Shown here in pieces: positions 45,983 to 61,622 of a DNA stretch of 64,000 bases. The number at the start of each line of letters is the position of its first letter. The stretch's first letter is position 1. Source of the DNA: a virus; UHGV virus genome UHGV-0311442; one strand, given 5' to 3'. The position numbers were made by a program, and so were the translations under genes. The notes under the pieces were generated by a model, which was given only the letters and a program-made list of their open reading frames with translations, searched no databases and was not told the DNA's origin.

Positions 45983-46513
45983 TTAGGACGTAAAACCGTC
46001 CAGCTCACCGTTGGTGGTGGCCAGGTCAATACGATTATCAACAACTTTCGGCGTAATTACGAAAGTTGCCATTACACCTGGTTTATAACGGAGGTTCTTT
46101 TCAGTAACGGTGCACGTTACCGTACGCAGAGTGACGTTTTCATGTTCGTCTTTCTGGTCTTCGGTGTTGTACACAACGTCGCCTGGTGCGATAGCATCGT
46201 TCGGTTTAACTTTATTGATGTAATATTGTAACCAAGCGCGCAGTTCATTTTCTTGAACCCAGCGAGACAGATCGTCAGTTAGTTCAATACGGCCTACAAC
46301 ACCCGGTTCCAGACGATCGTAATGCAGTTCGATTGCACCTTTGAAATTCTCAGAACCTGGTAGTGCAGTCATGGTAACTTTGGTATTCTTACCTTCGCCT
46401 TCCAGCGCAGTAGGGAGACCAAAGGACACTTCTTTATCAGTTACCTGATGTGGTAGCTCAGTGTTAGCAGCATTATAAAGCGCGACCAACATCATCTGGT
46501 TAGTAGCGGCCAT
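45983..46513 (-). CDS. five-member paralog family protein (176 aa)
   Basis: shares N-terminal pattern and ENFKG...HYxRL core with 46579..47109; similar to 49774, 50264, 61107. Confidence 0.55.
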   Translation of the reverse strand: MAATNQMMLVALYNAANTELPHQVTDKEVSFGLPTALEGEGKNTKVTMTALPGSENFKGAIELHYDRLEPGVVGRIELTDDLSRWVQENELRAWLQYYINKVKPNDAIAPGDVVYNTEDQKDEHENVTLRTVTCTVTEKNLRYKPGVMATFVITPKVVDNRIDLATTNGELDGFTS

Positions 46514-46561
46514 TATCTTAAATCCTCAATAGTACGAGTTAAAGAAATATCGGGGAGGTTA

Positions 46562-46571
46562 CCCCCCCCCC
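46562..46571. repeat. C10/G10 homopolymer tract in intergenic hairpin
   Basis: ten consecutive C on plus strand. Confidence 0.8.
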
Positions 46572-46578
46572 GATTTAA

Positions 46579-47109
46579 TTATTCTTTAGGAGACGGTGCG
46601 GTGAAGCCATCCAGTTCACCTTCCAAACCGCTCAGTGCTACTTTCTCAGGAGCCGGAGGAGTAACTTTATACGTCGCGACAGTACCAGGCAGGAACTTCA
46701 AGTGGCCAGCCACAACCGTTACCACGTAAATGGTTTTGCCTTCTTCTTCACGAGAAATAGTTTGCAGGTCGTTTTCACCGAACTCGTCATCGGTGTACCC
46801 TTTCTCAGCCATGGCTGCGTTAACTTTCGCCAGGATCTTCGTTGGTGAATCGAAATCGGTAGTAGGTGCAGTTACTTCAACTTCACCAACGATGTCGCAG
46901 GAAAGACGAGTATAGTGGAATTCTTTCTCGCCTTTGAAGTTCTGGCTTTCTGCCTTGGCGGTCAGAGTAATTTTAGTGTTGCGGCCAGCTTCTCCGGTGA
47001 ACTCAGCGACAGCACTAAAATTAACATCATTTACAGTCAACTTAGAAGCAGTTTGGTTGTTTTTAGCAATTACAATCTCGATAAGCTGCTGTTGAAAAGT
47101 TTTAGCCAT
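46579..47109 (-). CDS. five-member paralog family protein (176 aa)
   Basis: TKITLTAKAESQNFKGEKEFHYTRL aligns with TKVTMTALPGSENFKGAIELHYDRL in neighbour. Confidence 0.55.
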   Translation of the reverse strand: MAKTFQQQLIEIVIAKNNQTASKLTVNDVNFSAVAEFTGEAGRNTKITLTAKAESQNFKGEKEFHYTRLSCDIVGEVEVTAPTTDFDSPTKILAKVNAAMAEKGYTDDEFGENDLQTISREEEGKTIYVVTVVAGHLKFLPGTVATYKVTPPAPEKVALSGLEGELDGFTAPSPKE

Positions 47110-47248
47110 TGTTTTACCTCGTAAGTAGTATGGGTGGTTTGCATAGTATTGTTCGGATTATAGAAGTGTTGTTAATAGTTATGACAGACAGCAGTAAGGG
47201 TTGTCTGTAAAATTATTATTTTTTAACTTTTTATAGAAGGGTGAAAAC

Positions 47249-47728
47249 ATGCTAAAACGTTTTCTACTTGTTGTAACTGCAGCACTTTCGTTGGCAAGCT
47301 GTGCCCTACAACCCACCGCTAACGGTCAATTCTCGACTGTACCCGTAGAGCCACACGACATGGTTATTTACACCTGTATGGGTGTTGAGCAAGATTTTGC
47401 AAATTACAAACCTGTCGTCAGTTCGACTAACCTAATGTTAGGTTCAGTAACTGTAGTCGATACTGGTGCTAACTGGGTAGCCACTTGGCCAAACGGTAAG
47501 ATTGAATCACCACAACTTTATAAAGATCTATTAGGTAAAGTTAATGGGAATATCGATCCTATCACGGGACAACGTTACTACCGTGTAAATGGACTACTTT
47601 CAAAAACGCCAACATTTGCGTATTCTACTTTAGAATATAAAACGGGCGATGGTAAAGGCATTACTTTCTTCCACTGTAAGGAAGGTGTAGCTCCTGACAG
47701 TGGAACAATGCTCCATCCTGCGGAATAA
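47249..47728 (+). CDS. lipoprotein (159 aa)
   Basis: signal peptide with lipobox LASC (MLKRFLLVVTAALSLASC); own terminator; opposite strand to neighbours. Confidence 0.6.
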   Translation: MLKRFLLVVTAALSLASCALQPTANGQFSTVPVEPHDMVIYTCMGVEQDFANYKPVVSSTNLMLGSVTVVDTGANWVATWPNGKIESPQLYKDLLGKVNGNIDPITGQRYYRVNGLLSKTPTFAYSTLEYKTGDGKGITFFHCKEGVAPDSGTMLHPAE

Positions 47729-47735
47729 TAAAAAC

Positions 47736-47773
47736 TACCCTACTCCCGATAAGGAGTAGGGTATATTGATTTT
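47736..47773 (+). terminator. rho-independent terminator
   Basis: hairpin TACCCTACTCC-cgataa-GGAGTAGGGTA followed by TATTGATTTT. Confidence 0.6.
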
Positions 47774-47846
47774 AACCGTCAAATCGTGCGTAAAACGCAT
47801 TCTAAGCGTCTTTATACAAAATAAGGTATAAACGCCTTAGAAATAG

Positions 47847-48362
47847 TTAAATCTCGACTAAAGCGCTCCAATCGATTGGTTTTTGCTTAACCACTTTCAC
47901 AGTACCACGATTTGGTGACCAGAAAGTAATGTTAGGTTGATTACGAACGTCGATGTGTAACCAGCTGATGTCACATTCAATAAAGTGAATGAACGGAAAC
48001 TCATCAGGGTTAGCAGCGATATAGTCGTGAACCTGTTTTACGGTGCTATCCAACAACGTTGCATCAATTGCGTTACCGAATTTGTGTTGACTTCCTGAAT
48101 CGGCGTAAAGCTGTAACGCACGTTGTTTATAACTACCGCCCTTAGGCTTTTCTTGATTAATAAAGAAATCTAAAGTTCTTAGTCCGCGTTGTTGCGCAGC
48201 GGTTGAGTTAATCACCATTCTACCGAAACGGTTACGAATCTGTTGCAGTGAAATCATTAGCAACGGGTTCATAAACCGGATTGCAGAATCGCCGTATTTG
48301 GCAATATAAGACTGTGGTACTAACTCTCTGAGTTTAAAATTACTCGGATTTGGATGAAACAT
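47847..48362 (-). CDS. peptidase M15-family cell-wall peptidase
   Basis: SGSQHKFGNAIDA and WLHIDVR motifs (zinc ligands of M15 D,D-/L,D-peptidases); GGGAGGGAAG RBS. Confidence 0.6.
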   Translation of the reverse strand: MFHPNPSNFKLRELVPQSYIAKYGDSAIRFMNPLLMISLQQIRNRFGRMVINSTAAQQRGLRTLDFFINQEKPKGGSYKQRALQLYADSGSQHKFGNAIDATLLDSTVKQVHDYIAANPDEFPFIHFIECDISWLHIDVRNQPNITFWSPNRGTVKVVKQKPIDWSALVEI

Positions 48363-49005
48363 CTTCCCTCCCAGACAGAAAAGCGCGTTTGATGTTCAGG
48401 TATTTGACATTAACGGGCTGATCTGTGGTGATATCAATACGTTCGTGGTCAGGGATTGCAGGTTCCTTAAACTCGCGAACGAATAAATAGTTTCGATTAT
48501 AATCTAACGTACGAAACGCGTTAGTGTTGTAGGATGGCTTTGCATTAGGATCTACGTAGGAATCCCAGCCGAATTCAACGACGGCCTTATAAAATGTTTG
48601 GCAGATATAAGGTGAGATTTCCAACGACTGCATAATACGCAGGAACGTTAAATCAGAGAACTCTTTATCGATAATACGCGAAACGTTACCACCCGGTGTC
48701 ATGGGATAGCTACGCTCCGTGTTACATTTTTGATAGAGTAGGTCGTGAATGCAGGCCGCAGGTGCCCACGGTCCGTCAGGATGGAAAATTCCCTGGAGGT
48801 GTTCAGGAATTGACGCTAAATCGGTAACGAACCCTTTCGGTGCTGTTAACCACAGTTGCGTGTCAGGCAATACACCCGTTAAATAAACCGCACGGTCTAA
48901 GTGTACGTGGTCGTGATAAATCTCACGTAACGTAAACGGATAATGGTAATCCTCCGTTAATACAAACCACTTATTGTCTAAACGTTTATATTGAAACTTC
49001 TCCAT
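48340..49005 (-). CDS. DUF1353-like protein
   Basis: TDLASIPEHLQGIFHPDGPWAPAACIHDLLY resembles the DUF1353 D-x-AS-x-P...HD pattern; start re-set to ATG 49005. Confidence 0.4.
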   Translation of the reverse strand: MEKFQYKRLDNKWFVLTEDYHYPFTLREIYHDHVHLDRAVYLTGVLPDTQLWLTAPKGFVTDLASIPEHLQGIFHPDGPWAPAACIHDLLYQKCNTERSYPMTPGGNVSRIIDKEFSDLTFLRIMQSLEISPYICQTFYKAVVEFGWDSYVDPNAKPSYNTNAFRTLDYNRNYLFVREFKEPAIPDHERIDITTDQPVNVKYLNIKRAFLSGREDVSSKSE

Positions 49006-49121
49006 TACCCACACCTTCCCTTATAGAAACCAGAAAAATTCGCATCCACGCTTTTCGTCTTTACGTTTTCGTCCAGACGTTAACGCTTTCCACAATAGTG
49101 CTAAGAGTTTAGCAAACCAGT

Positions 49122-49712: not shown

Positions 49713-49734
49713 TTTGTTTAACTCCTCTTTTACA

Positions 49735-49769
49735 CAAAAAAAGAAAAGAGGGTGGGATTACCCCACCCT
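49735..49769 (-). terminator. rho-independent terminator
   Basis: hairpin AGGGTGGG-atta-CCCACCCT with T-run on minus strand. Confidence 0.55.
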
Positions 49770-49773: not shown

Positions 49774-50250
49774 TTATTTCTTCTTAGCGCGTGATGGCTT
49801 AGCTGGCGGTGTTTCAACAGTCGGTTTACGCGCAACGCGCACTGTAAAACCACCGACCCAGGTTAGGCACTCAGGACGGAAGAAAATGCCGTGCTCGATT
49901 GCACTGCCGCCCAGCGGTAACTCACCAACCTGCTCTACCCATACGTCGTCTTCAGTAAGGGTTAAGCCATACTGTTCGTTAATTACAGGCAACAGGTCCG
50001 CAGTCGTGGTGGCTGTTTCAACTAACAGTTTCGGCAATACGTTGAGGAAATACAAACCGGCATCGATGCGGTTATACTGGAACGTTTGCTTATTAGCATA
50101 ACCGAGATTCTTAACCGCCACAACCGTAATTTCGGTATTGTACGCACCGGTACTTACGACGGGCTCACCCAATGTAACTTTGGCGGTGTCGAACTCAGCG
50201 TCTGGGTTAGCCTTTTTAATAAGGTCGAAGATAGTTTCTTGACTGGTCAT
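49774..50250 (-). CDS. five-member paralog family protein (158 aa)
   Basis: N-terminal pattern and DLLPVINEQYGLTLTEDDV shared with 50264 and 61107. Confidence 0.55.
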   Translation of the reverse strand: MTSQETIFDLIKKANPDAEFDTAKVTLGEPVVSTGAYNTEITVVAVKNLGYANKQTFQYNRIDAGLYFLNVLPKLLVETATTTADLLPVINEQYGLTLTEDDVWVEQVGELPLGGSAIEHGIFFRPECLTWVGGFTVRVARKPTVETPPAKPSRAKKK

Positions 50251-50263: not shown

Positions 50264-51112
50264 TTAATCTAAGAATCCCGGTAAGACCGAATTAGTTTTA
50301 GCTAATTCAATCTTCGACTTCGGACGATCGGTACCGTTAAAGTGGATTAACAGATTACCGGTCAGGTTAGCACACAGTCCACTGAGTGCGAGTACCAGCA
50401 CACGTGTGTACTTTGTGTTTGCGCCTTCGTAACCTGCGGTAGGCCCATCGTAGATAACCTTAGCACCGTAGAGGTTATTAGCAGCGTTCTTAGGTACGCT
50501 TACCCATATCTCATCAACGACGTTAGTCAGTTTAGTGGCTAACTCAGCCAGGTCGACGGTGTCGTTAATGGTAATCGGATCAAGGTAATCTTTTTCTGCT
50601 GTGAAATCAATTGGATAAGAATAAACCGCAGCGTTACCTTTCTTAGTGGACGGATACTCTACCAGGTTTTCTAATTGAGTAACAGGTAACAGTTTAGCCA
50701 GATCAATAGGATCGCGTAGCGTAAGTGTTACTTCGCCACACCACTCGTAGGATTTCTCGTTAGCGGTAAGCTGATGGGTTTCACCTTCAACTTTCGCATC
50801 AACGATATCCGACGGCAGAATATTTAAATCGTATTTTGCATTGATTGCATTAAGCAAATCTGCAGCGGTTACAACACCGTCGTTACCAAACACCAACTCA
50901 CCTGTTAGGTATTCGGGCAAATTACGACGATGGTAAGTCACAGTTAAAGTAGTAGACTCATCGCCTTTGAGTTTAGAAGTCAGAACCACCTGGGTATCAA
51001 CCCCAGTACCAGTAGGTTCGCCGATATCAACATCACTGAAGGTCAATGGCGGAACAATATTGTTTTCAGTGTTGATGAGTTTTAGCAGTTTCTGTTTTGA
51101 CGTAAGAGACAT
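50264..51112 (-). CDS. five-member paralog family protein, extended (282 aa)
   Basis: N-terminal KLINTENN...TFSDVDIG...LTVTYHRR and DLLNAINAKYDL. Confidence 0.55.
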   Translation of the reverse strand: MSLTSKQKLLKLINTENNIVPPLTFSDVDIGEPTGTGVDTQVVLTSKLKGDESTTLTVTYHRRNLPEYLTGELVFGNDGVVTAADLLNAINAKYDLNILPSDIVDAKVEGETHQLTANEKSYEWCGEVTLTLRDPIDLAKLLPVTQLENLVEYPSTKKGNAAVYSYPIDFTAEKDYLDPITINDTVDLAELATKLTNVVDEIWVSVPKNAANNLYGAKVIYDGPTAGYEGANTKYTRVLVLALSGLCANLTGNLLIHFNGTDRPKSKIELAKTNSVLPGFLD

Positions 51113-51234: not shown

Positions 51235-51271
51235 GAAAATTAATTCCGCTATAGACCGAAGCCTATAGCGG
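51235..51271 (-). terminator. possible terminator hairpin
   Basis: CCGCTATAG-accgaagc-CTATAGCGG downstream of 51279..51710. Confidence 0.35.
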
Positions 51272-51278
51272 AGAGAGG

Positions 51279-51710
51279 TTAGCGAACGTTATGTGCTAAG
51301 TACATCAGAGAACGAGTGTCGGTGTCACGATAAGTTTGTGACATCTGGCTCAGTAACTTGTTGGCGGTAGGATCGCTATAAAGACGTTTTAACCATTCGT
51401 CAACCATTTCTGGTACAGTGTCGACCAGCAGTGGATAGTTAAGATTTTCCAGTGTGTATTCAACGAATTCGTGCATCAGATTCTGGTCACGATGCATGGT
51501 GTCACCTAACTCACCTGCGGGATACTCTTCACGAGGACGTTTACCCCAGCTGCAAATCTCCATATAGGCCGTGTTTACAATCTCTTTGTATTCCTCTAAC
51601 TTAAGTAAATCGAAGCCAGCATTCGGGCGGCAGAAACCTACTAAAACGCTCAGAGCAATAGGGTTGTTACGAACGTAGTTACGGATTTCATCATTTAATA
51701 CGAAAAACAT
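51279..51710 (-). CDS. hypothetical protein (143 aa), paralog of 52914..53342
   Basis: aligned N-termini (NDEIRNYVRNNPIALSVL vs NSDLRDYIRQYPASIPVL) and shared W-x-R-L...DP motif. Confidence 0.55.
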   Translation of the reverse strand: MFFVLNDEIRNYVRNNPIALSVLVGFCRPNAGFDLLKLEEYKEIVNTAYMEICSWGKRPREEYPAGELGDTMHRDQNLMHEFVEYTLENLNYPLLVDTVPEMVDEWLKRLYSDPTANKLLSQMSQTYRDTDTRSLMYLAHNVR

Positions 51711-51742
51711 TTTAATACTCCTTTAGGTAAATACAATAATGG

Positions 51743-51762
51743 AGGGGTGGTTTACCACCCCT
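51743..51762 (-). terminator. possible terminator hairpin
   Basis: GGGGTGG-ttta-CCACCCC after stop of 51780..52892; weak T-run. Confidence 0.35.
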
Positions 51763-51779
51763 TGTACGATTTTAGTTAA

Positions 51780-52892
51780 TTAACGAAATTTTTGACAAGC
51801 AGGGCAATCGCAGCCTATGCCAGATGATATTTCTCTAAAGATCGCGTCGATCGAGTGCTCATTATTCTTAAGAAAACGAGCTCCCGCCAAGTCACGCAGA
51901 TGAGTTTTTAACTTTCCGATAATACCGGGTTCATAGTTGAGTAGAATGGTAAGTGTATTGTCTGTGTAAGTCCACTGACGGACTTTCTCAGGAAACCAAC
52001 GAGCGATATCACGCATAAACTTATCGGCATCTTCTTTCCCAATAGTAGTGATTGTCAGAAGACGTAGACGATTGTCAACAATCTCATTAATGAGGTTGCT
52101 AATTTCTTCGTCAAGAGCAGCGTCCCACCATTTCCATTTAATGATGAGTTTTTCGCCCTCGAGTTTAGTCTCTACTTTGGTAGGATAGAAAGCTGTCAAG
52201 GTATCATTAATCGCTTCGGCCTCTGGGCCAGTGTAAGTAAAGGAATACGGTTCTTCGAACCATTTAATAACGTCAGGATCATTATCAACAAGCACGGTTA
52301 GCGTGCCGTCGACATAATTAGACCCACGAATTTTCTCCTTGTATTCGTGAACAGCACTACGCATGAGTTCATCAGCGGTATCTTTTCCGATACCATGAAT
52401 CGAAATAAGTCGAACGGCATCGTTATCGATCAGCTCAGCGATAGAACTAATTTCTTCCATGAGATTACGATCGTCTTTCTTCAATCGAACGACGATCTTA
52501 TCGTTATCCGAATAAATGCCTAAATCGTCGGGATAGAGGGTCTCTAACGCTTCTTTAATTTCCTTAATCTTCTTACCTTCGTACCAGAGGACGTGTGGTT
52601 CGTCTTTCTGCTGTTCTTCTACTTTCGGTTGTTCAGTCTCGGTCGTTTCCACCCGAGTGTTCGTGGTACCTTCTGCTGGGTTGAGTAACTCACCGATTTC
52701 TTTCGCGATAGTGTCGCAAAGATAATCGTTGCAGTGAGTCCAGTAGAATACGATGCTTTCATCGTTGACCTGCTCTACACGGAAATGTACACCTTTATCC
52801 AGGAATATGCGATAAAGTTGATCAAGTAACTGTGCTTCAGGAACCGGACGGATTTCAGTTTTAACGAGCGGGGTAATTTCGATATTAAACAT
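51780..52892 (-). CDS. hypothetical protein with internal duplication and C-terminal Cys cluster (370 aa)
   Basis: two ~65-aa repeats; C-terminal CDCPACQKF. Confidence 0.55.
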   Translation of the reverse strand: MFNIEITPLVKTEIRPVPEAQLLDQLYRIFLDKGVHFRVEQVNDESIVFYWTHCNDYLCDTIAKEIGELLNPAEGTTNTRVETTETEQPKVEEQQKDEPHVLWYEGKKIKEIKEALETLYPDDLGIYSDNDKIVVRLKKDDRNLMEEISSIAELIDNDAVRLISIHGIGKDTADELMRSAVHEYKEKIRGSNYVDGTLTVLVDNDPDVIKWFEEPYSFTYTGPEAEAINDTLTAFYPTKVETKLEGEKLIIKWKWWDAALDEEISNLINEIVDNRLRLLTITTIGKEDADKFMRDIARWFPEKVRQWTYTDNTLTILLNYEPGIIGKLKTHLRDLAGARFLKNNEHSIDAIFREISSGIGCDCPACQKFR

Positions 52893-52913
52893 GTCATTTT
52901 TCCTTTTGGTAAA

Positions 52914-53342
52914 TTAGCTGTAATTGTGCTTAAAGAACTCTAAAGCACGCTGGTCGTTTGTAATCGCCGTTGTGGACATTCGTTTTAACGCCTGGCGGCA
53001 GTAAGGGTCGTTCAGAATACGTTGCTGCCAAGCGTTGACTATTTCCGTCACTGTTTCCCCTTCTACAGCAGTGTTAAGTTTATCGAGGCAGTGCCGTCCT
53101 AACAGAAACGCAACTGCGTAATCGGTAAACATCTCGGTGCCGAAATCCCCGTCGGGATAATCGCAACGTTTACGTACCGACGTTGCGGTAATGGAGTTAT
53201 AAGCGGTTTTTATTATCTCGTGGAACTGTTCCACCGTTAAGATGTTAACGTCAGTACCTGAAAGCGTAAGCGATGCCAGTACAGGAATACTGGCTGGGTA
53301 CTGACGGATGTAATCACGCAAATCTGAATTGAGCGTTTTCAT
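52914..53342 (-). CDS. hypothetical protein (142 aa), paralog of 51279..51710
   Basis: see 51279..51710. Confidence 0.55.
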   Translation of the reverse strand: MKTLNSDLRDYIRQYPASIPVLASLTLSGTDVNILTVEQFHEIIKTAYNSITATSVRKRCDYPDGDFGTEMFTDYAVAFLLGRHCLDKLNTAVEGETVTEIVNAWQQRILNDPYCRQALKRMSTTAITNDQRALEFFKHNYS

Positions 53343-54090
53343 TCATGAACCCTTTTGTTTTTATCCAATATAAGCAATTTGCACCAACCTGAACTGGCTC
53401 GATCCTATCAAGTTCTTCCATCAGAGCCAGATAAGTTTGCCAAACGGTTTGACGTTCGAAGAAAAATGATGTTGTGCCATTAGACCTAAGACATGCACGT
53501 ACTAAGTGCTCGGTTTGTGAAAACTGTATATTAACGTTGTTCAGGACACGTTGTATAGTATCAGAGTCGTAATGCGCGAAACGATCTTTGTGTACCAGAA
53601 CCATCTCTATAGGCGAGGAATCGTCATTGACTGAAAAAGGTTCGTCAATGCGAATAAGGTTATTCCGGTGAGGTACCCCATCGTAACCGAGCGTATAGAC
53701 ATCCATACCTTCCCCCGGGTTACAGTCGAAATACTCCAGAATTTTATCAGCGTTTTTCTCCGCCGAACGTTTAAAGTAAACAATATAAACGGTATGACTA
53801 ATCTTCTCAACTTCGTATACTTTTTCGGAGAACGATCTGAAAATTGCCATGACGTTTAATCTTCCTTTGTCTTTAGCAACGTAACTTGCAACTAAACACG
53901 TTGCTTCACCACGAAGAACATCGTCAATGAACTCTTTTGCTCGTTTTAATTCATCCTCGTTAAAACCACCGATAGTGAGCTCATTCCCATAAATCTGATA
54001 AGCAAGATGTGGAGTAACGTTTTTCAGGAAACTCGTAATGATGTGCGTGTATGCCCAAAGACTACTATTCTTAAACTCGATAGTTTTCAT
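53314..54090 (-). CDS. hypothetical protein (258 aa)
   Basis: ORF track. Confidence 0.5.
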   Translation of the reverse strand: MKTIEFKNSSLWAYTHIITSFLKNVTPHLAYQIYGNELTIGGFNEDELKRAKEFIDDVLRGEATCLVASYVAKDKGRLNVMAIFRSFSEKVYEVEKISHTVYIVYFKRSAEKNADKILEYFDCNPGEGMDVYTLGYDGVPHRNNLIRIDEPFSVNDDSSPIEMVLVHKDRFAHYDSDTIQRVLNNVNIQFSQTEHLVRACLRSNGTTSFFFERQTVWQTYLALMEELDRIEPVQVGANCLYWIKTKGFMNENAQFRFA

Positions 54091-54134
54091 TTTATTTTCC
54101 TTTTGGTTTTACAAGCTGAAACGTTAATTTACGC

Positions 54135-54629
54135 TTAGAGGTGTTTTCCGATAACTTCCGAAACTAATTCGTAAAGGTCATCGTCACTGCACACGTCTAC
54201 GCTAATTCCGATATCGATACTACGACTGCGGAACCCTACTTTGAGCGTTTTACCGAATTCGGTTTGTAGGGCTTTATAGAGTCTATTCTTATCTTCTTTA
54301 AAGAGAGGAACAGGTAGTCTAACAGTGAACTTGTAATGTTCTTTCGAAACAAGTTCGTTAGAATAATTAAAACGTTTAGCCACACGGGTTCCGACAATCT
54401 GTGTTATCAGCTTAAACATTTCTTCGTCACTATACGGAGTTGCGCCATAACCGATATCAATAGAATTTCTACGGAATCCTGCGCAGAATAATGCACCGAA
54501 TTGCTCACGGAATTCTTTGTATAGAACATCTTTTTCTACATCCCACAGCCCGTAACCCAAGTCAACAGTGAATTTGTATTTTTCTTTGTCAACTAATTCG
54601 TTAGTGTAATCAAGTCTAGTGAAGTTCAT
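54135..54629 (-). CDS. tandem-duplicated ~80-aa domain protein (164 aa)
   Basis: two repeats sharing NELV-KE-YKFTV...LYK...FG...GFR-SIDIG...CSD..L. Confidence 0.55.
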   Translation of the reverse strand: MNFTRLDYTNELVDKEKYKFTVDLGYGLWDVEKDVLYKEFREQFGALFCAGFRRNSIDIGYGATPYSDEEMFKLITQIVGTRVAKRFNYSNELVSKEHYKFTVRLPVPLFKEDKNRLYKALQTEFGKTLKVGFRSRSIDIGISVDVCSDDDLYELVSEVIGKHL

Positions 54630-54676
54630 GGTATATTCTCCTAAAATGGTTTTCGTTAAGTGAGAGCTTTTGTACT

Positions 54677-54710
54677 CTCACCTAAGTAATATATATCTGA
54701 AATTATTTTT
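54677..54710 (-). promoter_or_regulatory. conserved promoter-like motif, copy 3
   Basis: minus-strand reading AATAATTTCAGATATATATTACTTAGGTGAGAG, then hairpin and RBS of 54135..54629. Confidence 0.45.
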
Positions 54711-54711
54711 A

Positions 54712-54993
54712 TTAAAAACCCGCAATAAAACTGCCTAGCGAGACACGTTGCAAGTATTTTGGTTTGCGTGCCAGGTAACAGTTCTTAGGATTACCTATTG
54801 CCATCTGTGCAACTGCACGTTCTAAACGCGGCGCTTCTAAGATGGCACGATAGTTCCCTTCGTAGTGCATCAACCACGCACACTCTTCAACAAAACGTTT
54901 TGCTTCTCGGTATTCTAACGTACGAATTAACTTCTTGCCCCGGTATTGTTTTACATCACCGTTTTGACAAAATACAATAGTTTCACGCTTCAT
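54712..54993 (-). CDS. hypothetical protein (93 aa)
   Basis: ORF track. Confidence 0.45.
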   Translation of the reverse strand: MKRETIVFCQNGDVKQYRGKKLIRTLEYREAKRFVEECAWLMHYEGNYRAILEAPRLERAVAQMAIGNPKNCYLARKPKYLQRVSLGSFIAGF

Positions 54994-55294
54994 TGATAAT
55001 CTCCCAGTTCGCTCTTATAATCTCACGTTTACAGTCTTCAATATCTTTACGGTAAAACGTCGTTTTTTCTTTTAATAGCTTTAATATCTCCTCTTTAGGC
55101 AATTTCCCCTCACAACCCAATTCAGCAATAGCACAAACGAGAACAGTCAAATATTCTACTGAACCGGTTTTCGCACGATATTCAGAGATAAGTTCTTGTT
55201 GTGTTTCAACGGTTTCTTCTAATAACTTGATATATTCTTCGTGCTTTGCGCACGCTTTGCATTTTCCGAAACCTAGCAATTTAAAAACCACTAT
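54983..55294 (-). CDS. hypothetical protein with CxxC (103 aa), GTG start
   Basis: AAGGAGG 5 nt before GTG at 55294; the track ATG at 55330 lacks an RBS. Confidence 0.45.
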   Translation of the reverse strand: MVVFKLLGFGKCKACAKHEEYIKLLEETVETQQELISEYRAKTGSVEYLTVLVCAIAELGCEGKLPKEEILKLLKEKTTFYRKDIEDCKREIIRANWEIINEA

Positions 55295-55592
55295 TACCTC
55301 CTTTGGCAATCCAGGTCGCCACACGCACATGAGCGTCTTGAAAAGACGATATGAGCAAGATCACACCGCCTAACGTACGAGGGACGCGTAAGGCTTCGTA
55401 ACGACGGCAGTAAGAACGTACGCAATACTCGGAACCTAAGATAACGATTTCGCAGTATTCTGAACGAATAGGTAGTAGTTGAGAAACGAGTTTATCGCAC
55501 GTTTCTTTATTGTCTTCTAACAACCCACCACGGAGAATATAGTTGACAATGTTCTCAGGTACCGATGTGTTTGTGATTTTACTTTCCATCAT
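55281..55592 (-). CDS. hypothetical Cys-containing protein (103 aa)
   Basis: AGGAG RBS. Confidence 0.5.
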   Translation of the reverse strand: MMESKITNTSVPENIVNYILRGGLLEDNKETCDKLVSQLLPIRSEYCEIVILGSEYCVRSYCRRYEALRVPRTLGGVILLISSFQDAHVRVATWIAKGGNSGF

Positions 55593-55978
55593 TAAACTCC
55601 TATAGTGATCTCCGTAATGTGCATTCTTCGCATCTCACGGGTCATTCTGTCTATTGCTCGTTGACACTCGAATAAATTGTCGTAGTATTTCTGGGCGGTA
55701 ACGTTGAATATAATCCGACCTTCTTTCAATTGTTTAGCAACGACTTTTGTAGTTTCCGATTCAAACAGCAAACCACCTTCCCTGCCGATCTTAACTAAAA
55801 CGTCACGAATGATAACGTTTATAAGCTCACCATTTGGGGAAACCACGATTTCCGTATACCAATCGCCCTCGCTAACGATACGTTGTACCCTTTCACCGCA
55901 TAGCCAGTTTTTAACTTTCCCGTTAACATACAGTTGGGCTTTCAGTAACAAACGTCTTTTAATGTAAGATAAACGCAT
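55592..55978 (-). CDS. hypothetical protein (128 aa), paralog of 55982..56356
   Basis: shared GDWYTEI...IGREGG...F...TAQ core. Confidence 0.55.
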   Translation of the reverse strand: MRLSYIKRRLLLKAQLYVNGKVKNWLCGERVQRIVSEGDWYTEIVVSPNGELINVIIRDVLVKIGREGGLLFESETTKVVAKQLKEGRIIFNVTAQKYYDNLFECQRAIDRMTREMRRMHITEITIGV

Positions 55979-55981
55979 CTT

Positions 55982-56356
55982 TTAAACCTCCACCGTAGTT
56001 CGTTCAGTTTCTTTAATAAACTTACTAAGCGATTCATTTAAACGTTTTACTCTTTCACCAAACTTAACTACTGTATCGTAAAGGCATTGTGCTGTACCGT
56101 TAAATAAAATCGGACCGTTTTTTAACTCCAGGGCAGAAACTTGATAGTATTCAGAGTTGAAGATTGCTCCTCCCTCGCGTCCTATTCTAACAACTACGTT
56201 ACGAACTTGTATGTTTTGTAACCCACCGTTTGCTAACGTAATAATCTCTGTATACCAGTCACCCGATTTAACTACCGTTGTGACATTCTTGCCGCAAGCC
56301 CAGGTTTTAAACGAAGTGTCTAGCCAACATCTGAATTTGTATAACAGTAATGACAT
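55982..56356 (-). CDS. hypothetical protein (124 aa), paralog of 55592..55978
   Basis: GGAGGAG RBS; see above. Confidence 0.55.
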   Translation of the reverse strand: MSLLLYKFRCWLDTSFKTWACGKNVTTVVKSGDWYTEIITLANGGLQNIQVRNVVVRIGREGGAIFNSEYYQVSALELKNGPILFNGTAQCLYDTVVKFGERVKRLNESLSKFIKETERTTVEV

Positions 56357-58536: not shown

Positions 58537-58584
58537 CTAATCCTCCTTTCGGCTATAACTAATGGAGTGAACGTAAATTTCACT

Positions 58585-58616
58585 CTCCCCTAGGTAATAT
58601 ATATCTGAGAAAAAAT
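58585..58616 (-). promoter_or_regulatory. conserved promoter-like motif, copy 4
   Basis: minus-strand reading TTCTCAGATATATATTACCTAGGGGAGAG then hairpin GAGTGAA...TTCACTC and RBS. Confidence 0.45.
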
Positions 58617-58653
58617 ATAAAAACCGTAGGATGGACTTAGTCCATCCTACGGT
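58617..58653 (-). terminator. rho-independent terminator
   Basis: hairpin CCGTAGGATGGAC-tta-GTCCATCCTACGG flanked by A/T runs. Confidence 0.6.
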
Positions 58654-58658
58654 TTAAA

Positions 58659-60785
58659 TTAAATAACTACCCAGCTTTTACCATCGGAGCCAACTTGCAT
58701 TAGCGTAATACTTTCAGTGGTCTCAATGGGTTTGGCAAGACCTTCCGTCCCACCCTTTGGAGTGATGAGAACGTTCGAATTTTGCGGTTTAACGGTGATC
58801 GAACCAGCCTTATTTGCCACGATCTGTATATTTCTACCCACGCTATATTCTAGATCAGGAATAGTAAGTTGGCCGCCACGGTTGGTGGCTGGGAAATACA
58901 CATAAGACGATACATCTTCCTCAGATAACACTATACTACCAGAATCACGATTGACCGAGATCTCAAACTTAGAAATATCGATATCGTAGGCAGTAACTTT
59001 CGTAATATCTGTCAGAACCAATTCGTTCAAATTGGTCTTAGCTGTACTGTTCGCCAGATCAAATGGAGTGCCATTCTTGCCGTCAAGCACAGGCGTGACT
59101 TTGATTTTATTGTCACCCGGATAAATGATTTCAAACGTATGCCAGTTATTATCGTACGCACCAAAAGTTCCTAATTGCACATTCTGCTTTTTATGATGCA
59201 TCAGATAAAGATTCGTACCGTCGGTCTGTAAGAAAAAAGACATTAAGTACGGGTTCGTATCAGCCACACCAGCGTCAGCAAGTGTAGTACCAGAAGGTAG
59301 GTCGGACGCGGAAATACGCCAATAAAGTCCTAATCCGAAACGATCTGCTGCTAAATCACCTTTTAGTCTAAAAGTAACGGTCAGACGTCCACCGTAACGT
59401 ATCATGTCCGCAGCAGATGTCATTGACTTAGTTACATTCCAAGGTTTCATCGTTACAGCCTTTCTTAATTCGACGAAATGCCCGTTTCCATCCTCAGAAT
59501 CTTGCACGGTTACGTTACAATCAACGATATTGTTCCAACCCTGCCCTTTCAGGGAACCATCTCCACGACGTCCGTTATAACCCACAGACTCTACTAATGG
59601 GGTATAGCTTCTTACCACATTCATATTGTCTTTGAGCTCTTTAGTGTCGTTCTTCGTCAGGAGCATTGCACCATTCGCTGTTCTTGATAATATCTCAGCA
59701 GCTATTCTCTCTGAGATAATACCGCGTCGTGCCCAAGAACTGAAATGGCTATTCCTTGTTTCAGACGTCCAGTTTTTATTACTACGGGTGGCAGCACCGT
59801 AGTAGGCAGCACCAGCGATATCAGGATCGTCAGTGGGATCATTAGTCGGTACACGTTGGCCATTATCGTCGTACATGAATGGAACAAAAAAGATATTTTT
59901 TTGTTCATTGTTACGATAATTACCGTATATGGTTTCATATTGAACAGGATATTTTTCCTTCCAATAGTAGGTAGTGTCCCCGCAGATCCATGGTACTTCG
60001 GCGGTGTCGTACTCGGGCATCTGAGAGAGATGGTCAGAGAGATCAGTTCGGAAACGCTCTACCATTGCCATAAATAACGCTGGTTGTTGTGCGTAACCTA
60101 CTTTAGTCAGATCATACTCCCCCTGCATCCACACTACAGCCAAGAGTTTATTTTTAGGATTAACGTCCAGAGCTTTTTTGGTCCGGCTAACTAAATCTTT
60201 ATAAAGAGGTTTTTCCACCCCCCATACCGATGACGTCGCAGAGGCTCCTGTGGCTTCATCGAAGGTACCTTCTGCACCACCCGTGAAAGCAGAACCGCCG
60301 CGTGCGCAGGGTACTAGTAAGATACCAGCGTTGCTAGGAATATACGGGAGAAGACGCTTCGCGATGTGTAGACCTTGACCCACACATCCGTATTCACCTT
60401 TGTCCAAATTGGCTTTGGGGTGCGAGAATACGGACATATCTTGCACGTCGTGCAGACAGTGATCCGCTGGAATGACGTCGTTATACTTACAATCAGCACC
60501 ATTAGGCGTTACCTTCGCACGGCGCGCCATTTGTTTAATCCGCGGATCGGGAGCGTCCAACGTCGCTGGTAAAGGCAATCCTTCACCATAACTCATCGCA
60601 TTAGATTGCCCGGCTATAGGGATCACGAAGTAATAATCCGGTTCCGTCACCCCCCCCCCTTGAAGTTCTGCAATATCAATTTTATATTCTTTTTCTTCCT
60701 TAGAAAGGAGAACTACCGCACCTTTGAGATCGCCAGAGAAATTGTCGAGTTCATGGATACGTTTCTTTCCAATTGGTTGAACCAT
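58659..60785 (-). CDS. tail-associated SASA/SGNH-type carbohydrate O-acetylesterase with C-terminal beta-rich domain (708 aa)
   Basis: N-terminal FVIPIAGQSNAMSYGEG (GQSN motif); GGAGGT RBS before ATG 60785; adjacent to fibre genes. Confidence 0.6.
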   Translation of the reverse strand: MVQPIGKKRIHELDNFSGDLKGAVVLLSKEEKEYKIDIAELQGGGVTEPDYYFVIPIAGQSNAMSYGEGLPLPATLDAPDPRIKQMARRAKVTPNGADCKYNDVIPADHCLHDVQDMSVFSHPKANLDKGEYGCVGQGLHIAKRLLPYIPSNAGILLVPCARGGSAFTGGAEGTFDEATGASATSSVWGVEKPLYKDLVSRTKKALDVNPKNKLLAVVWMQGEYDLTKVGYAQQPALFMAMVERFRTDLSDHLSQMPEYDTAEVPWICGDTTYYWKEKYPVQYETIYGNYRNNEQKNIFFVPFMYDDNGQRVPTNDPTDDPDIAGAAYYGAATRSNKNWTSETRNSHFSSWARRGIISERIAAEILSRTANGAMLLTKNDTKELKDNMNVVRSYTPLVESVGYNGRRGDGSLKGQGWNNIVDCNVTVQDSEDGNGHFVELRKAVTMKPWNVTKSMTSAADMIRYGGRLTVTFRLKGDLAADRFGLGLYWRISASDLPSGTTLADAGVADTNPYLMSFFLQTDGTNLYLMHHKKQNVQLGTFGAYDNNWHTFEIIYPGDNKIKVTPVLDGKNGTPFDLANSTAKTNLNELVLTDITKVTAYDIDISKFEISVNRDSGSIVLSEEDVSSYVYFPATNRGGQLTIPDLEYSVGRNIQIVANKAGSITVKPQNSNVLITPKGGTEGLAKPIETTESITLMQVGSDGKSWVVI
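60650..60659 (-). repeat. G10 homopolymer tract inside the esterase coding sequence (codons for GGGV)
   Basis: ten consecutive C on plus strand; in frame as given. Confidence 0.85.
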
Positions 60786-61106
60786 TGTAACCTCCAATTT
60801 TTAAACCAATACTCTTCCGGTTAGCGCGACATGCCGTTCTGTGATAAGGCAGTACTAACGATAAGTTTAACCGGGGTTTGTTCTTCCGTAATAGGGATTT
60901 CATCGAGATTGTTGATATCAATAGTAACATCATGGACTTTAGGCATTGTTACCAAGATAGTCAACATTACCACCGATGCTTTTGTGGAAGTATCCGCAAC
61001 GTAATATTTAACGTCCAGTAATTCGTTACTTTCAGATAAGTAGAGTATTTGCGGATAGATTGTTATCAATGTAAAAAAAATACCAACGCCATTTAAGTTT
61101 TAGCCA

Positions 61107-61622
61107 TTAATGATCTCCGAAGGTTAATGCACAATTATCTGCGGTAACGATTAAATCGTCGTCTTTTGTTACTGCGGCTTCTTCACTGTTACCGAAAACC
61201 AGAACAGAGAATTGACCTTTATAACCTAATGAATTAGGTGATACCTGTAACGTTACCGCGTCTTTTCCTACAGTGAAAGAATCATCTGTTAGATCTTCAG
61301 CTTGTAAGTTACTGCCACAAGCTGCGTTAATCGCTTCGATTAAATCGTGTGTGGTAAACCCTTCCCCGGCTACTTTTACCAGAATAGGTTGCTGGTTTAA
61401 CCACCGCTCTGCGGTTAAACGGTTGTAATAGATCTGCAACGTTCTGTTTCCAGGACGCTTAATCTTTACAACGGCAGTGGTATCACGATTCATTTCTTCA
61501 GTAGGATTTACGTTGCTGAACTCAACCTCGTTTTCTTGCAGATCGAGCTGAAGGTCGTAGTTGATCAGCGATATAACCATGTTAGTTGAAGTTAATGATA
61601 AATCTGGTGTGAATTGCCCCAT
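61107..61622 (-). CDS. five-member paralog family protein (171 aa)
   Basis: start re-set to ATG 61622 with GGAGGT RBS; LINYDL...HDLIEAINAACG pattern. Confidence 0.5.
   Translation of the reverse strand: MGQFTPDLSLTSTNMVISLINYDLQLDLQENEVEFSNVNPTEEMNRDTTAVVKIKRPGNRTLQIYYNRLTAERWLNQQPILVKVAGEGFTTHDLIEAINAACGSNLQAEDLTDDSFTVGKDAVTLQVSPNSLGYKGQFSVLVFGNSEEAAVTKDDDLIVTADNCALTFGDH

What the first reader, a model, noticed from the sequence alone, without database searches (positions are those of the whole stretch)
45983..61622. Five-member paralog family scattered around cell-wall and fibre genes
ORFs at 45983, 46579, 49774, 50264 and 61107 share an N-terminal pattern (hydrophobic L-I-x-x-I-N near the start, a TxxDVxF segment, and a T-x-V-x-L-T-A...G...Y-x-R-L core) and, in three of them, a D-L-L-x-A-I-N segment. 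No function is recognisable. Their position beside fibre genes suggests a diversifying set of small virion-associated or adhesin-chaperone proteins.
Basis: seen in the sequence. Interest (0 to 1): 0.55.

Follow-up and report, generated by a model that had tools for sequence, protein, structure and literature searches.

The report
Five DUF7941 virion filament-subunit paralogs
The five small genes are genuine paralogs of a known jumbo-phage family (Pfam DUF7941, the SPN3US "paralog family B"), whose members are abundant virion proteins recently proposed to link head-to-tail into flexible filaments; the finding is real but is not a new kind of thing.

Summary
Observation confirmed. All five minus-strand ORFs match Pfam PF25613 (DUF7941) above its curated cut-off. 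A family HMM finds exactly these five in the 64-kb window.

The window is an undescribed SPN3US-like (phiKZ-type) jumbo phage, syntenic with SPN3US:
- D is closest to the first gene of the SPN3US 17-gene array.
- C is closest to gp141.
- A and B are closest to gp160.
- E is closest to gp122.

A 2026 preprint shows that a Goslar homolog forms filaments and predicts head-to-tail docking. I add four things:
- A conserved post-domain tail motif (…GELDGF) is present in A, B and D. C lacks it, and E has a different tail.
- 60 of 146 family representatives are covalent arrays of two or three such domains, spaced about 170 aa apart.
- B alone is hypervariable among close relatives (49–100% identity; A, C and D 82–99%).
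- E-type genes sit directly upstream of receptor-binding genes in three genera.

The "adhesin-chaperone" idea is not supported. The attachment site is unresolved: SPN3US proteomics finds the A–D orthologs in tailless heads, whereas phiKZ gp127 sits at the baseplate periphery. Verdict: new members of a known family, moderate interest.

The parts
50264..51112 (-). D: long DUF7941 protein (282 aa). It has an N-terminal domain, a linker motif, a C-terminal domain, and a 23-aa C-terminal extension.
   Evidence: Pfam PF25613, 182.3 bits, covering positions 5-275 of the 276-position profile. 45% identical over its full length to the first gene of the SPN3US 17-gene array. phmmer E = 4.4e-7 to phiKZ gp127, PDB 9xqd. 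92-99% identical in 7 related contigs. The AF2 model is poor (pLDDT 43).
50651..50704 (-). D linker motif DLAKLLPVTQLENLVEYP (aa 137-154), directly after the N-terminal domain.
   Evidence: It aligns with the post-domain motif VT..L.GL.YP of SPN3US and Goslar long forms and with the C-terminal tails of A and B. Coordinates.
50267..50335 (-). D C-terminal extension GTDRPKSKIELAKTNSVLPGFLD (aa 260-282): a second, tail-type copy of the motif.
   Evidence: 8 of 15 residues match the tail of A. Conserved in all related contigs. Absent from the SPN3US ortholog, which ends at ...LHFNN.
49774..50250 (-). C: short DUF7941 protein (158 aa). N-terminal domain only, ending in a Lys/Arg-rich tail and lacking the docking-type motif.
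   Evidence: Pfam 105.2 bits. 39% identical to the N-terminal domain of SPN3US gp141. A basic tail (aa 140-158, nt 49777-49833) is present in every relative although its sequence and length vary, giving proteins of 154-165 aa.
46579..47109 (-). B: short DUF7941 protein (176 aa). N-terminal domain plus a C-terminal docking-type tail. This is the hypervariable member.
46603..46644 (-). B tail motif KVALSGLEGELDGF (aa 156-169).
   Evidence: K156, L159, S160, G164, E165, L166, D167, G168 and F169 are each >= 90% conserved across 149 A/B-type sequences that are as little as about 40% identical overall. This is the lowest-entropy block of the protein.
45983..46513 (-). A: short DUF7941 protein (176 aa), tandem paralog of B. 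N-terminal domain plus a C-terminal tail IDLATTNGELDGF (aa 162-174, nt 45992-46030). This is the conserved member.
   Evidence: Pfam 38.4 bits. 33% identical to B and 36% to SPN3US gp160. 93-99% identical in 9 related contigs. phiEaH2 also has two genes at this position, and relative L020 has three.
61107..61622 (-). E: short DUF7941 protein (171 aa) with a different, acidic tail ...DDDLIVTADNCALTFGDH (nt 61110-61163). It is the first gene of a unit that continues into a receptor-binding/esterase gene.
   Evidence: Pfam 62.9 bits. 32% identical over its full length to SPN3US gp122, which shares the tail type. No terminator lies between E and the 712-aa gene. Goslar gp91, a small DUF7941 protein, also sits directly upstream of the fibre gene gp90.
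58659..60797 (-). Downstream partner of E: a 712-aa protein with a sialate-O-acetylesterase-type domain and DUF6645. Its first ~50 aa are a conserved N-terminal module.
   Evidence: Pfam SASA 42.3 bits and DUF6645 101.9 bits. Residues 5-53 are 47% identical to the N-terminus of SPN3US gp123, the gene downstream of gp122. In relatives the same module heads a different 206-aa gene. Terminator at 58621-58655.
51245..51272 (-). Terminator-like hairpin upstream of D; closes the preceding gene.
   Evidence: 12-bp stem followed by a T-run.
49749..49769 (-). Terminator-like hairpin directly after C; ends the D-C unit.
   Evidence: 9-bp stem with 6 GC pairs, then a T-run.
46549..46574 (-). Terminator-like hairpin between B and A, so B is a unit of its own.
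   Evidence: 10-bp stem with 7 GC pairs, then a T-run.
45940..45970 (.). Bidirectional terminator-like hairpin after A, where it converges with the DUF4376 gene.
   Evidence: 12-13-bp stem scored on both strands.

Best explanation
The five genes encode modular subunits of a self-assembling protein filament carried by the virion of an SPN3US-like (phiKZ-type) jumbo phage. Each protein starts with the same ~145-residue globular DUF7941 N-terminal domain. What follows that domain decides the role.

- A and B (176 aa) carry a short, highly conserved tail (...L..T.GELDGF). I take this tail to be the 'donor' peptide that docks onto the N-terminal domain of the next subunit, so A and B would be chain-elongating units. 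They correspond to the most abundant members in SPN3US (gp160) and Goslar (gp23).
- D carries the same motif as an internal linker, then a C-terminal domain, then a second tail-type copy of the motif.
- C has the domain but no donor motif, only a basic tail. It could accept but not donate, acting as a cap or end unit.
- E has a different acidic tail and is co-transcribed with a swappable esterase/receptor-binding gene. I infer that it is the tail-side member that couples receptor-binding proteins to the system.

Separate terminators around D-C, B and A would allow different stoichiometries.

Likely function: long flexible external fibres that enlarge the capture radius and mediate first contact with the host. 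B would be the exposed, fast-changing subunit.

Shown here: homology, fold, motif conservation, tandem-array relatives, variability, synteny and transcription-unit signals.

Shown by others for homologs: virion abundance, filaments of purified Goslar gp22, and phiKZ gp127 in the outer baseplate.

Inferred: donor/acceptor roles of each paralog, external location, host-recognition function and the anchor site.
For: Family membership:
- All five match PF25613 above the cut-off, and they are the only five matches in the window.
- Orthology and synteny with SPN3US are clear.

Fold:
- The model of B has pLDDT 94, and the tail itself scores about 92.
- D matches gp127 by sequence (E = 4.4e-7).

Donor motif:
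- It is >= 90% conserved in 149 A/B-type sequences.
- 37 of 47 short single-domain representatives carry it in their last 30 aa, against 5.8 +/- 2.3 in shuffles and 11 of 196 other 30-aa windows.
- It aligns with the post-domain linker of the long forms.

Fusion ('Rosetta-stone') evidence for linear head-to-tail arrays:
- Of the 146 best representatives, out of 2011 family members in 1.84 billion proteins, 50 have two and 10 have three tandem N-terminal domains.
- The spacing is 170 aa (IQR 165-176), the size of A and B. The motif is present at 34 of 60 junctions.

Literature:
- Purified Goslar gp22 forms filaments.
- AF3 predicts head-to-tail docking of the linker onto the next N-terminal domain.
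- Some Goslar members are fused to carbohydrate-binding, hydrolase or LRR domains.
- gp22 and gp23 are present at about 580 and 2140 copies per virion.
- phiKZ gp127 terminates the gp139 band in the outer baseplate (PMC13250141).

Signs of surface exposure:
- B varies from 49 to 100% identity where A, C and D stay at 82-99%.
- The A/B-type copy number ranges from one intact gene (B disrupted) to three among relatives.
- The DUF7941 genes are the most diverged genes of the block relative to SPN3US: 36-45% identity against 45-83% for the neighbours, whose low end is the fibre-like gp168.

E:
- A small DUF7941 gene sits directly upstream of a fibre or receptor-binding gene in this phage, SPN3US and Goslar.
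- The cassette downstream of E is swapped among relatives while E stays 85-87% identical.
- SPN3US gp122 is seen only in tailed virions (22 PSM against 0 in tailless heads), like gp123 and gp124.

Expression: terminators delimit D-C, B and A; 13 were found in the region against 5.6 +/- 2.3 expected.
Against: - In SPN3US, the closest studied relative, the orthologs of D, C and A/B (gp138, gp141, gp160) are as abundant in dual-CsCl-purified tailless heads as in whole virions (head/WT ratios 1.45, 1.44 and 1.23). Their authors therefore call them head proteins, possibly ejection proteins. That contradicts a purely baseplate-anchored fibre cloud and leaves an internal location possible.
- No DUF7941 density was seen in the Goslar maps. 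The Goslar preparation also carried non-virion assemblies (PhuZ, chimallin), so co-purification is possible.
- Only one gp127 per baseplate lobe is modelled in phiKZ, and that model was itself docked from an AF3 prediction at 4.4 A.
- No multimer prediction could be run here.
- The model of D failed (pLDDT 43).
- The roles assigned to C, D and E rest on the presence or absence of motifs alone.
- The motif at array junctions could dock in cis rather than in trans.
Confidence: 0.55

Rival explanations
1. A to D are internal head proteins: part of the packaged protein bolus, or ejection proteins, incorporated into the capsid and delivered to the cell with the DNA. They would not be external fibres.
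For: SPN3US gp138, gp141 and gp160 are at equal or higher normalised levels in tailless heads from the tail-tube mutant than in wild-type virions (text). The SPN3US authors list gp141 and gp160 as 'Head ejection?'. They are very abundant, like the PF12699 ejection proteins.
Against: - None of them is among the nine proteins processed by the prohead protease, unlike the known internal proteins.
- Purified Goslar gp22 forms long filaments in vitro.
- Relatives carry the domain fused to carbohydrate-binding or hydrolase domains. One 683-aa relative is annotated as a tail fibre protein, which makes sense only outside the capsid.
- phiKZ gp127 is modelled on the outer baseplate.
- B shows allele replacement typical of exposed proteins.
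Confidence: 0.2
2. The proteins polymerise but are not true virion parts. They form cytoplasmic filaments or bundles during infection, for example an assembly scaffold, and merely co-purify with particles.
For: The Goslar preprint states that its preparation also captured PhuZ filaments and phage-nucleus fragments. gp22 self-assembles without any virion. Co-purification would explain their presence in both tailless heads and whole virions.
Against: - Levels in SPN3US are reproducible across replicates after two CsCl gradients, with low variance. Protein-only filaments should not band with DNA-filled heads; this is an inference from buoyant densities.
- gp127 occupies a defined site in the phiKZ map.
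- Fusions to receptor-binding-type domains argue for an extracellular role.
Confidence: 0.15
3. One reading: small chaperones or assembly factors for the neighbouring fibre and adhesin genes.
For: E lies beside gp38-type adhesin and fibre genes and is co-transcribed with an esterase fibre gene. SPN3US gp122 is of very low abundance (22 PSM) and was classed as non-virion by its authors.
Against: There is no similarity to any tail-fibre chaperone family. A to D are not next to fibre genes; they lie in a lysis / radical-SAM block. Their orthologs are among the most abundant particle proteins, which chaperones are not. Goslar detected all ten of its members in virions.
Confidence: 0.05
4. The shared pattern is chance or compositional similarity between unrelated small ORFs.
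For: Several pairwise BLAST scores are only 25-29 bits or absent; A-C, B-C, A-E and B-E show no significant pair.
Against: Pfam matches of 38-182 bits, all above the curated cut-off. A clean gap in the window-wide HMM scan, 1e-34 against 0.76. Each ORF has conserved orthologs in other genera.
Confidence: 0.01

Closest known systems
Escherichia phage Goslar gp22 / gp23 and eight further DUF7941 proteins (bioRxiv 10.64898/2026.04.21.720040)
   Same: - Same Pfam family.
- Same two architectures: D resembles gp22 (N-terminal domain + linker + C-terminal domain; 29% identity over 214 aa), and A/B resemble gp23 (N-terminal domain + linker only; 35% identity in the N-terminal part).
- Same neighbourhood: a GH108/PG_binding_3 lysin lies next to the pair.
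- A small member (gp91) sits directly upstream of a fibre gene, as E does.
   Different: - Five members in this window against ten in the Goslar genome.
- None here is fused to carbohydrate-binding or hydrolase domains; E is separate from its esterase partner.
- The gp23-type gene is duplicated here, into a conserved copy and a hypervariable copy.
- C, with no linker motif and a basic tail, has no described Goslar counterpart.
- Filament formation and copy numbers were measured for Goslar, not here.
Salmonella phage SPN3US 'paralog family B' (gp83, gp138-154, gp160, gp237, candidate gp122; PMC5105663, PMC5694885, PMC10052503)
   Same: Direct orthology and synteny: D with the first gene of the array (45% identity), C with the gp141 N-terminal domain (39%), A/B with gp160 (36% / 45%), and E with gp122 (32%). 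The lysin, DUF1353, lipoprotein, DUF4376 and radical-SAM neighbours are shared.
   Different: - The SPN3US 17-gene array is reduced to two genes (D, C) here.
- The C-type gene is truncated to the N-terminal domain.
- gp160 is single in SPN3US but tandemly duplicated here, as in phiEaH2.
- D has a C-terminal extension that its SPN3US ortholog lacks.
- SPN3US assigns the family to the head by proteomics; nothing here tests location.
Pseudomonas phage phiKZ gp127 (PDB 9XQD chain 0; PMC13250141), with gp126 and gp143
   Different: - Only 18% identity.
- phiKZ has about three members, and one gp127 per baseplate lobe is modelled.
- There is no evidence that any of the five occupies that site. The closest studied orthologs, in SPN3US, stay with tailless heads.
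Polymers built by donating a terminal peptide to the next subunit, e.g. donor-strand exchange in chaperone-usher pili. This is an analogy from general knowledge, not tested.
   Same: The proposed logic is the same: a globular acceptor domain plus a short conserved terminal peptide that completes or binds the neighbour. Subunits lacking the donor would act as chain ends, and specialised adhesin-linked subunits would occur.
   Different: No sequence or fold relationship. No usher or chaperone. The docking geometry is unknown. This says what it may work like, not which family it belongs to.

Membership tests
Pfam PF25613 (DUF7941) | Profile match above the curated gathering score (27 bits) | tested here: met
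   A 38.4, B 37.8, C 105.2, D 182.3 and E 62.9 bits.
Pfam PF25613 (DUF7941) | N-terminal globular domain with the fold seen in phiKZ gp127 residues 1-150 | tested here: met
Pfam PF25613 (DUF7941) | Post-domain linker or tail motif (…L..T..L.G[FL]..) proposed to dock on the next subunit | tested here: met
   Present in A (aa 162-174), in B (aa 156-169) and twice in D (aa 137-154 and 260-282). Conserved family-wide.
Pfam PF25613 (DUF7941) | The same linker or tail motif in C and E | tested here: not met
   C ends in a Lys/Arg-rich tail directly after the domain. E has an acidic ...LIVTADNCALTFGDH tail, like SPN3US gp122 and like the ends of triple-domain arrays. C and E are members by domain but deviate in this feature.
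Pfam PF25613 (DUF7941) | C-terminal globular domain (full-length architecture) | tested here: met
   Only D: its match covers profile positions 5-275 of 276 and ends in ...LLIHFN. A, B, C and E are the short architecture, as is Goslar gp23.
Pfam PF25613 (DUF7941) | Head-to-tail oligomerisation or filament formation | not testable with these tools
   No multimer prediction or experiment was possible. Indirect support comes from tandem-domain relatives and from Goslar gp22 filaments.
Pfam PF25613 (DUF7941) | Occurrence in chimallivirus / phiKZ-type jumbo phages | tested here: met
   The window is syntenic with SPN3US. The 48 structural neighbours in BFVD that carry names are all from jumbo or phiKZ-like phages. 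Caveat: PMC13375240 reports the domain in Spiroplasma proteins as well.
SPN3US paralog family B | Orthology to named members, with conserved gene order | tested here: met
   Best hits are D to the array's first gene, C to gp141, A/B to gp160 and E to gp122. Flanking genes are 45-83% identical in the same order.
SPN3US paralog family B | Detected in purified virions and tailless heads by mass spectrometry | not testable with these tools
   Known only for the SPN3US orthologs.
Tail-fibre assembly chaperones (e.g. Caudo_TAP PF02413, T4 gp38/gp57-type helpers) | Profile match to a chaperone family | tested here: not met
   No such Pfam or PHROG match for any of the five at E <= 1.
PF12699 inner-body / ejection proteins (SPN3US paralog family A) | Profile match to PF12699 | tested here: not met
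   No PF12699 match for any of the five.

The most novel reading that the evidence does not exclude
The five paralogs are a complete construction kit for a heteropolymeric, pilus-like phage fibre.
- D would be a bivalent long unit, acting as a branch or anchor.
- A would be a conserved elongator.
- B would be a hypervariable, exchangeable elongator that sets surface or antigenic specificity.
- C would be a donor-less cap with a basic tail.
- E would be an adaptor that plugs swappable receptor-binding enzymes into the system.

Fibre length and composition would be set by separately terminated transcription units. The covalent two- and three-domain arrays found elsewhere would be the fused version of the same polymer. 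If true, this would be a new class of self-assembling viral appendage, built by peptide donation between identical domains, and it would resolve the head-versus-baseplate conflict by showing where the fibres are anchored.
Probability: 0.2. Interest if true: 0.65.

Novelty: new member of a known kind. Interest (0 to 1): 0.35.

Why it matters
DUF7941 proteins are among the most abundant components of phiKZ-type jumbo-phage particles (hundreds to thousands of copies), yet their location and role are still disputed. SPN3US proteomics places them in the head. A 2026 phiKZ map and a Goslar preprint place them in baseplate-anchored fibres.

This window adds a compact, five-gene version of the family, in a phage clade that turns up as ~225-kb contigs in many Salmonella, E. 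coli and Shigella assemblies.

The analysis gives testable handles:
- a conserved donor-type tail motif;
- natural fused arrays with a 170-aa period;
- a member without the motif;
- a hypervariable member;
- an adaptor-like member tied to a swappable receptor-binding cassette.

If the fibres mediate first contact with the host, the B alleles and the E cassette would be determinants of host range, which is relevant to phage therapy and typing.

The family itself is already described, so this is an incremental finding, not a new kind of system.

Tried and rejected
With the permitted shallow alignment the model was unusable (pLDDT 43), so nothing is claimed from it.
- phmmer searches of the neighbouring 435-aa and 1727-aa proteins against PDB chains found no phiKZ baseplate proteins. 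The link of those genes to baseplate and fibre proteins rests on SPN3US synteny and literature only.
- The word-indexed homolog search for D returned only close relatives (79-94% identity). A profile search with 19 members was capped at 8000 candidates and mostly re-found A/B-type proteins.
- I considered whether GLE/GE in the B tail is a prohead-protease site (the S/A/G-x-E type). I rejected this: A and SPN3US gp160 have N-G-E there, and no paralog-B protein is among the processed SPN3US proteins.
- The sigma-70 promoter scan gave fewer sites than shuffles. It is uninformative, as expected for a phage with its own RNA polymerases.
- I looked for further members among the large fibre-like ORFs (1440, 1394, 1727 and 712 aa). 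None was found by Pfam or by the family HMM.
- A literature search for 'hair-like' appendages of related phages gave nothing specific to this family.

Full report

Yes.
- A: 45983-46513, 176 aa
- B: 46579-47109, 176 aa
- C: 49774-50250, 158 aa
- D: 50264-51112, 282 aa
- E: 61107-61622, 171 aa from the ATG

DL[LI]..IN occurs in C, D and E only.

Pairwise BLAST is decisive only for A-B (33% identity over the full length). D bridges weakly to A, C and E.

Profiles remove the doubt:
- All five match Pfam PF25613 (DUF7941) above its gathering score of 27: 38.4, 37.8, 105.2, 182.3 and 62.9 bits.
- All five hit the PHROGs annotated 'virion structural protein'.
- An HMM built from 19 family members picks out exactly these five among 376 ORFs of the window, at E <= 1e-34; the next ORF scores 0.76.

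**2. What genome is this?**

The window has no near-identical DNA match among 50,697 phage records. Its proteins and gene order are those of the SPN3US/phiEaH2 group of phiKZ-type jumbo phages.

Read on the minus strand, the order is: D, C, GH108 lysin, DUF1353, a 171-aa gene, a lipoprotein on the opposite strand, B, A, DUF4376, a 190-aa gene, two radical-SAM genes, and then the large fibre-like proteins. SPN3US has the same order, with neighbours 45-83% identical.

Best hits in SPN3US:
- D: the first gene of the SPN3US 17-gene array, 45% identical over the full length. Tool outputs mask that gene's name as 'xxxxx'.
- C: the N-terminal domain of gp141, 39%.
- A and B: gp160, 36% and 45%.
- E: gp122, 32%.

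This is the SPN3US 'paralog family B' (PMC5105663, PMC5694885). The 17-gene array is reduced to two genes here. The single gp160 gene is duplicated here, as it is in phiEaH2.

**3. Anatomy**

All five share an N-terminal domain of about 145 aa. What follows that domain differs.

- A and B end in …IDLATTNGELDGF and …KVALSGLEGELDGF. In 149 A/B-type sequences, which are as little as about 40% identical overall, K156, L159, S160, G164, E165, L166, D167, G168 and F169 are each >= 90% conserved. This is the most conserved block of the protein.
- In the multiple alignment this tail lines up with the motif that directly follows the domain in the long forms (VT..L.GL.YP). In D that motif is DLAKLLPVTQLENLVEYP, aa 137-154.
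- D continues into the C-terminal domain, ending …LLIHFN like phiKZ gp127. It then has a 23-aa extension, …KIELAKTNSVLPGFLD, that resembles the A/B tail. The extension is conserved in the relatives and absent from the SPN3US ortholog.
- C stops right after the domain, with a Lys/Arg-rich tail that every relative keeps in kind but not in sequence.
- E ends …DDDLIVTADNCALTFGDH, like SPN3US gp122 (…VLCIGDDAVLTYGDDA).

Terminator-like hairpins bracket D-C, B and A as three separate units; 13 were found in the region against 5.6 +/- 2.3 in shuffles. E runs without a terminator into a 712-aa SASA-esterase/DUF6645 gene, followed by a strong terminator.

**4. Structure**

The AF2 model of B is confident (mean pLDDT 94; tail blocks about 92).
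- Foldseek against the PDB finds nothing.
- In BFVD, 48 predicted viral structures match at E <= 0.001. Those with names are from jumbo phages such as Eowyn, RAY, Phabio, PhiEaH1 and Moabite.
- D matches gp127 by sequence (E = 4.4e-7). Its own model failed (pLDDT 43).

**5. The wider family**

A full scan of 1.84 billion representative proteins with the five-sequence profile gives 2011 members at E <= 1e-3 and 366 at E <= 1e-10.

Among the best 146:
- 86 have one N-terminal domain, 50 have two and 10 have three, in tandem.
- The start-to-start spacing is 170 aa (IQR 165-176), the size of A and B.
- The hydrophobic-x-G-[FLI] motif sits at 34 of 60 junctions.
- It also sits in the last 30 aa of 37 of 47 short single-domain proteins. 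Shuffles give 5.8 +/- 2.3, and other 30-aa windows give 11 of 196.
- Five of seven triple arrays end in short acidic/glycine repeats (LLDDGG-like) that resemble the tail of E.

Covalent arrays of the same domain at the same period are independent, fusion-type evidence that these domains line up head to tail.

**6. Variation**

Across nine related contigs:
- A is 93-99% identical.
- D is 92-99%.
- C is 82-95%.
- B is 49-100%. In L019 it drops to 49% while the flanking genes are 95-100% identical.

B carries an internal deletion in L017. L020 has three A/B-type genes. The GELDGF motif survives in all intact B alleles.

The 90%-clustered protein collection holds about 100 B-type clusters from the same kind of ~225-kb contigs. 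D-type clusters from these contigs are all >= 79% identical.

E stays 85-87% identical while the gene downstream of it is exchanged. Three relatives (L021-L023) have a 206-aa gene that carries the same ~47-aa N-terminal module as the 712-aa esterase here and as SPN3US gp123; a fourth (L024) lacks both. The window keeps an 82-aa remnant of the 206-aa gene.

**7. What is known from experiments on homologs**

- *Goslar preprint* (10.64898/2026.04.21.720040). It describes ten DUF7941 proteins. gp22 and gp23 are present at about 580 and 2140 copies per virion. AF3 predicts that the linker of one protomer docks on the N-terminal domain of the next. Purified gp22 forms filaments. Three members are fused to carbohydrate-binding, hydrolase or LRR domains. 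The authors propose a 'fibre cloud' anchored at the peripheral baseplate. They also note that the preparation carried PhuZ and chimallin, and that no DUF7941 density was seen in the Goslar maps.
- *phiKZ atlas* (PMC13250141). One gp127 per star lobe ends the gp139 band of the outer baseplate. The model was docked from an AF3 prediction into a 4.4 A map.
- *SPN3US proteomics* (PMC10052503). The D-type, C-type and A/B-type orthologs have head/WT normalised ratios of 1.45, 1.44 and 1.23 in tailless heads from a tail-tube mutant, and are therefore called head proteins. gp122, the E ortholog, gives 22 PSM in virions and none in heads, like its neighbours gp123 and gp124, which are classed as tail proteins. 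Another family member, gp237, was re-assigned to the tail.

**8. Most likely mechanism**

I commit to this reading (confidence about 0.55): the five proteins are modular subunits of a self-assembling filament carried by the virion.
- The shared domain is the acceptor.
- The conserved tail or linker motif is the donor that binds the next subunit.
- A and B are elongation units.
- D is a long unit with two donor-type motifs.
- C can accept but not donate.
- E is the tail-side member coupled to a swappable receptor-binding enzyme.

The function would be host capture and first contact, with B as the exposed, fast-changing unit.

Shown here: homology, fold, motif conservation, fused arrays, variability and transcription-unit signals. 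Shown by others: abundance, gp22 filaments and the gp127 site. Inferred: donor and acceptor roles, external location, function and anchor site.

The anchor site is unresolved. The closest studied orthologs stay with tailless heads, which a purely baseplate-anchored model does not explain.

**9. Rivals**

- Internal head or ejection proteins (0.2). Supported by the SPN3US tailless-head data. Argued against by the lack of protease processing, the in-vitro filaments, the fusions to receptor-binding-type domains, the gp127 site and the allele turnover in B.
- Polymerising but co-purifying non-virion assemblies (0.15).
- Fibre chaperones (0.05). No family match; the orthologs are bulk components.
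- Chance (0.01). Refuted.

**10. Novelty and verdict**

The family is already known as Pfam DUF7941 and SPN3US paralog family B, with a filament model published in 2026. These are new members in an undescribed phage.

The increments here are:
- the tail 'grammar' across the five paralogs;
- the tandem-array relatives;
- the hypervariable B beside the conserved A;
- the recurring pairing of an E-type gene with a receptor-binding cassette.

Interest is moderate to low for the finding as stated (0.35). It would be higher only if the construction-kit reading and the location question were resolved experimentally.

Noticed in passing
window 61721-63933 (minus strand): Directly upstream of E lie three fibre-related genes: a fibre-tip gene with a Peptidase_S74 intramolecular chaperone domain (63079-63933), a full T-even-type Gp38 adhesin (62241-63032; PF05268, 232.7 bits), and a second gene with only the Gp38 N-terminal domain and a different C-terminus (61721-62224). 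T2/T4-style gp38 adhesins in a phiKZ-type jumbo phage are unexpected. Among relatives these genes vary from 35 to 98% identity.
   Followed up: partly
whole window; related loci L006, L010, L012, L016-L020: Close relatives of this phage (79-100% identical proteins) occur as ~220-227-kb contigs in many assemblies labelled Salmonella enterica (several serovars), E. coli and Shigella, and in IMG/VR. Yet no record among 50,697 deposited phage genomes is near-identical. This suggests a widespread, undescribed jumbo-phage clade that travels with enterobacterial isolates, perhaps in a carrier state.
   Followed up: partly
window 58659-61069; L021-L024: The site downstream of E is a swap site. Three relatives carry a 206-aa gene made of a conserved ~47-aa N-terminal module plus a small C-terminal domain; a fourth lacks both. 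The window has an 82-aa remnant of that C-terminal domain (60821-61069, TTG start, possibly not a gene), followed by a 712-aa SASA-esterase/DUF6645 protein that carries the same N-terminal module. SPN3US gp123 has the module too.
   Followed up: partly
window 51279-56356 (minus strand): There are other small paralog pairs near the finding: 51279-51710 with 52914-53342 (32% identity) and 55592-55978 with 55982-56356 (42% identity). By eye, 54135-54629 is an internal duplication of an ~80-aa unit. None has a Pfam match.
   Followed up: no
window 47249-47728 (plus strand): A lipoprotein-like gene (signal peptide plus Cys) sits between the lysis genes and B, on the opposite strand. It is conserved in position in SPN3US (48% identity) and has a Goslar homolog, gp88 (33%), which lies beside that phage's fibre genes. 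Like B, it is more variable than its neighbours among close relatives (71-93% identity).
   Followed up: no
L001 (SPN3US 121518-131656): Inside the SPN3US 17-gene array, gp145-147, gp148-150 and gp151-153 are three copies of a three-gene cassette. Each has a long DUF7941 protein ending in NGELDGF/NGELNGF, followed by two proteins of about 330 and 300 aa that lack the DUF7941 N-terminal pattern and end in ELVE / ELVLP. All are nevertheless counted in 'paralog family B'.
   Followed up: no
literature; protein B (46579-47109): A 2026 paper reports DUF7941 in Spaid-like proteins of a male-killing Spiroplasma and in other Spiroplasma species, so the domain may not be strictly confined to chimalliviruses. 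B also gives a sub-threshold Pfam 'Spiralin' match (E = 0.006, 17.5 bits).
   Followed up: no
representative proteins P0195, P0196, P0202, P0208, P0222: Some large family members (778-1778 aa) combine two to five DUF7941 N-terminal domains with other repeated modules. P0222 alternates the domain's C-terminal half with repeats that look like lectin/LamG domains by eye. Their genomic origin is unknown because the library has no context.
   Followed up: no
tool outputs: The name of SPN3US gene number 138 is replaced by 'xxxxx' in annotation tables, paper text and even my own script output. In this report 'the first gene of the SPN3US array' means that gene (RefSeq tag ACQ60_gp128, protein YP_009153432.1).
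   Followed up: no
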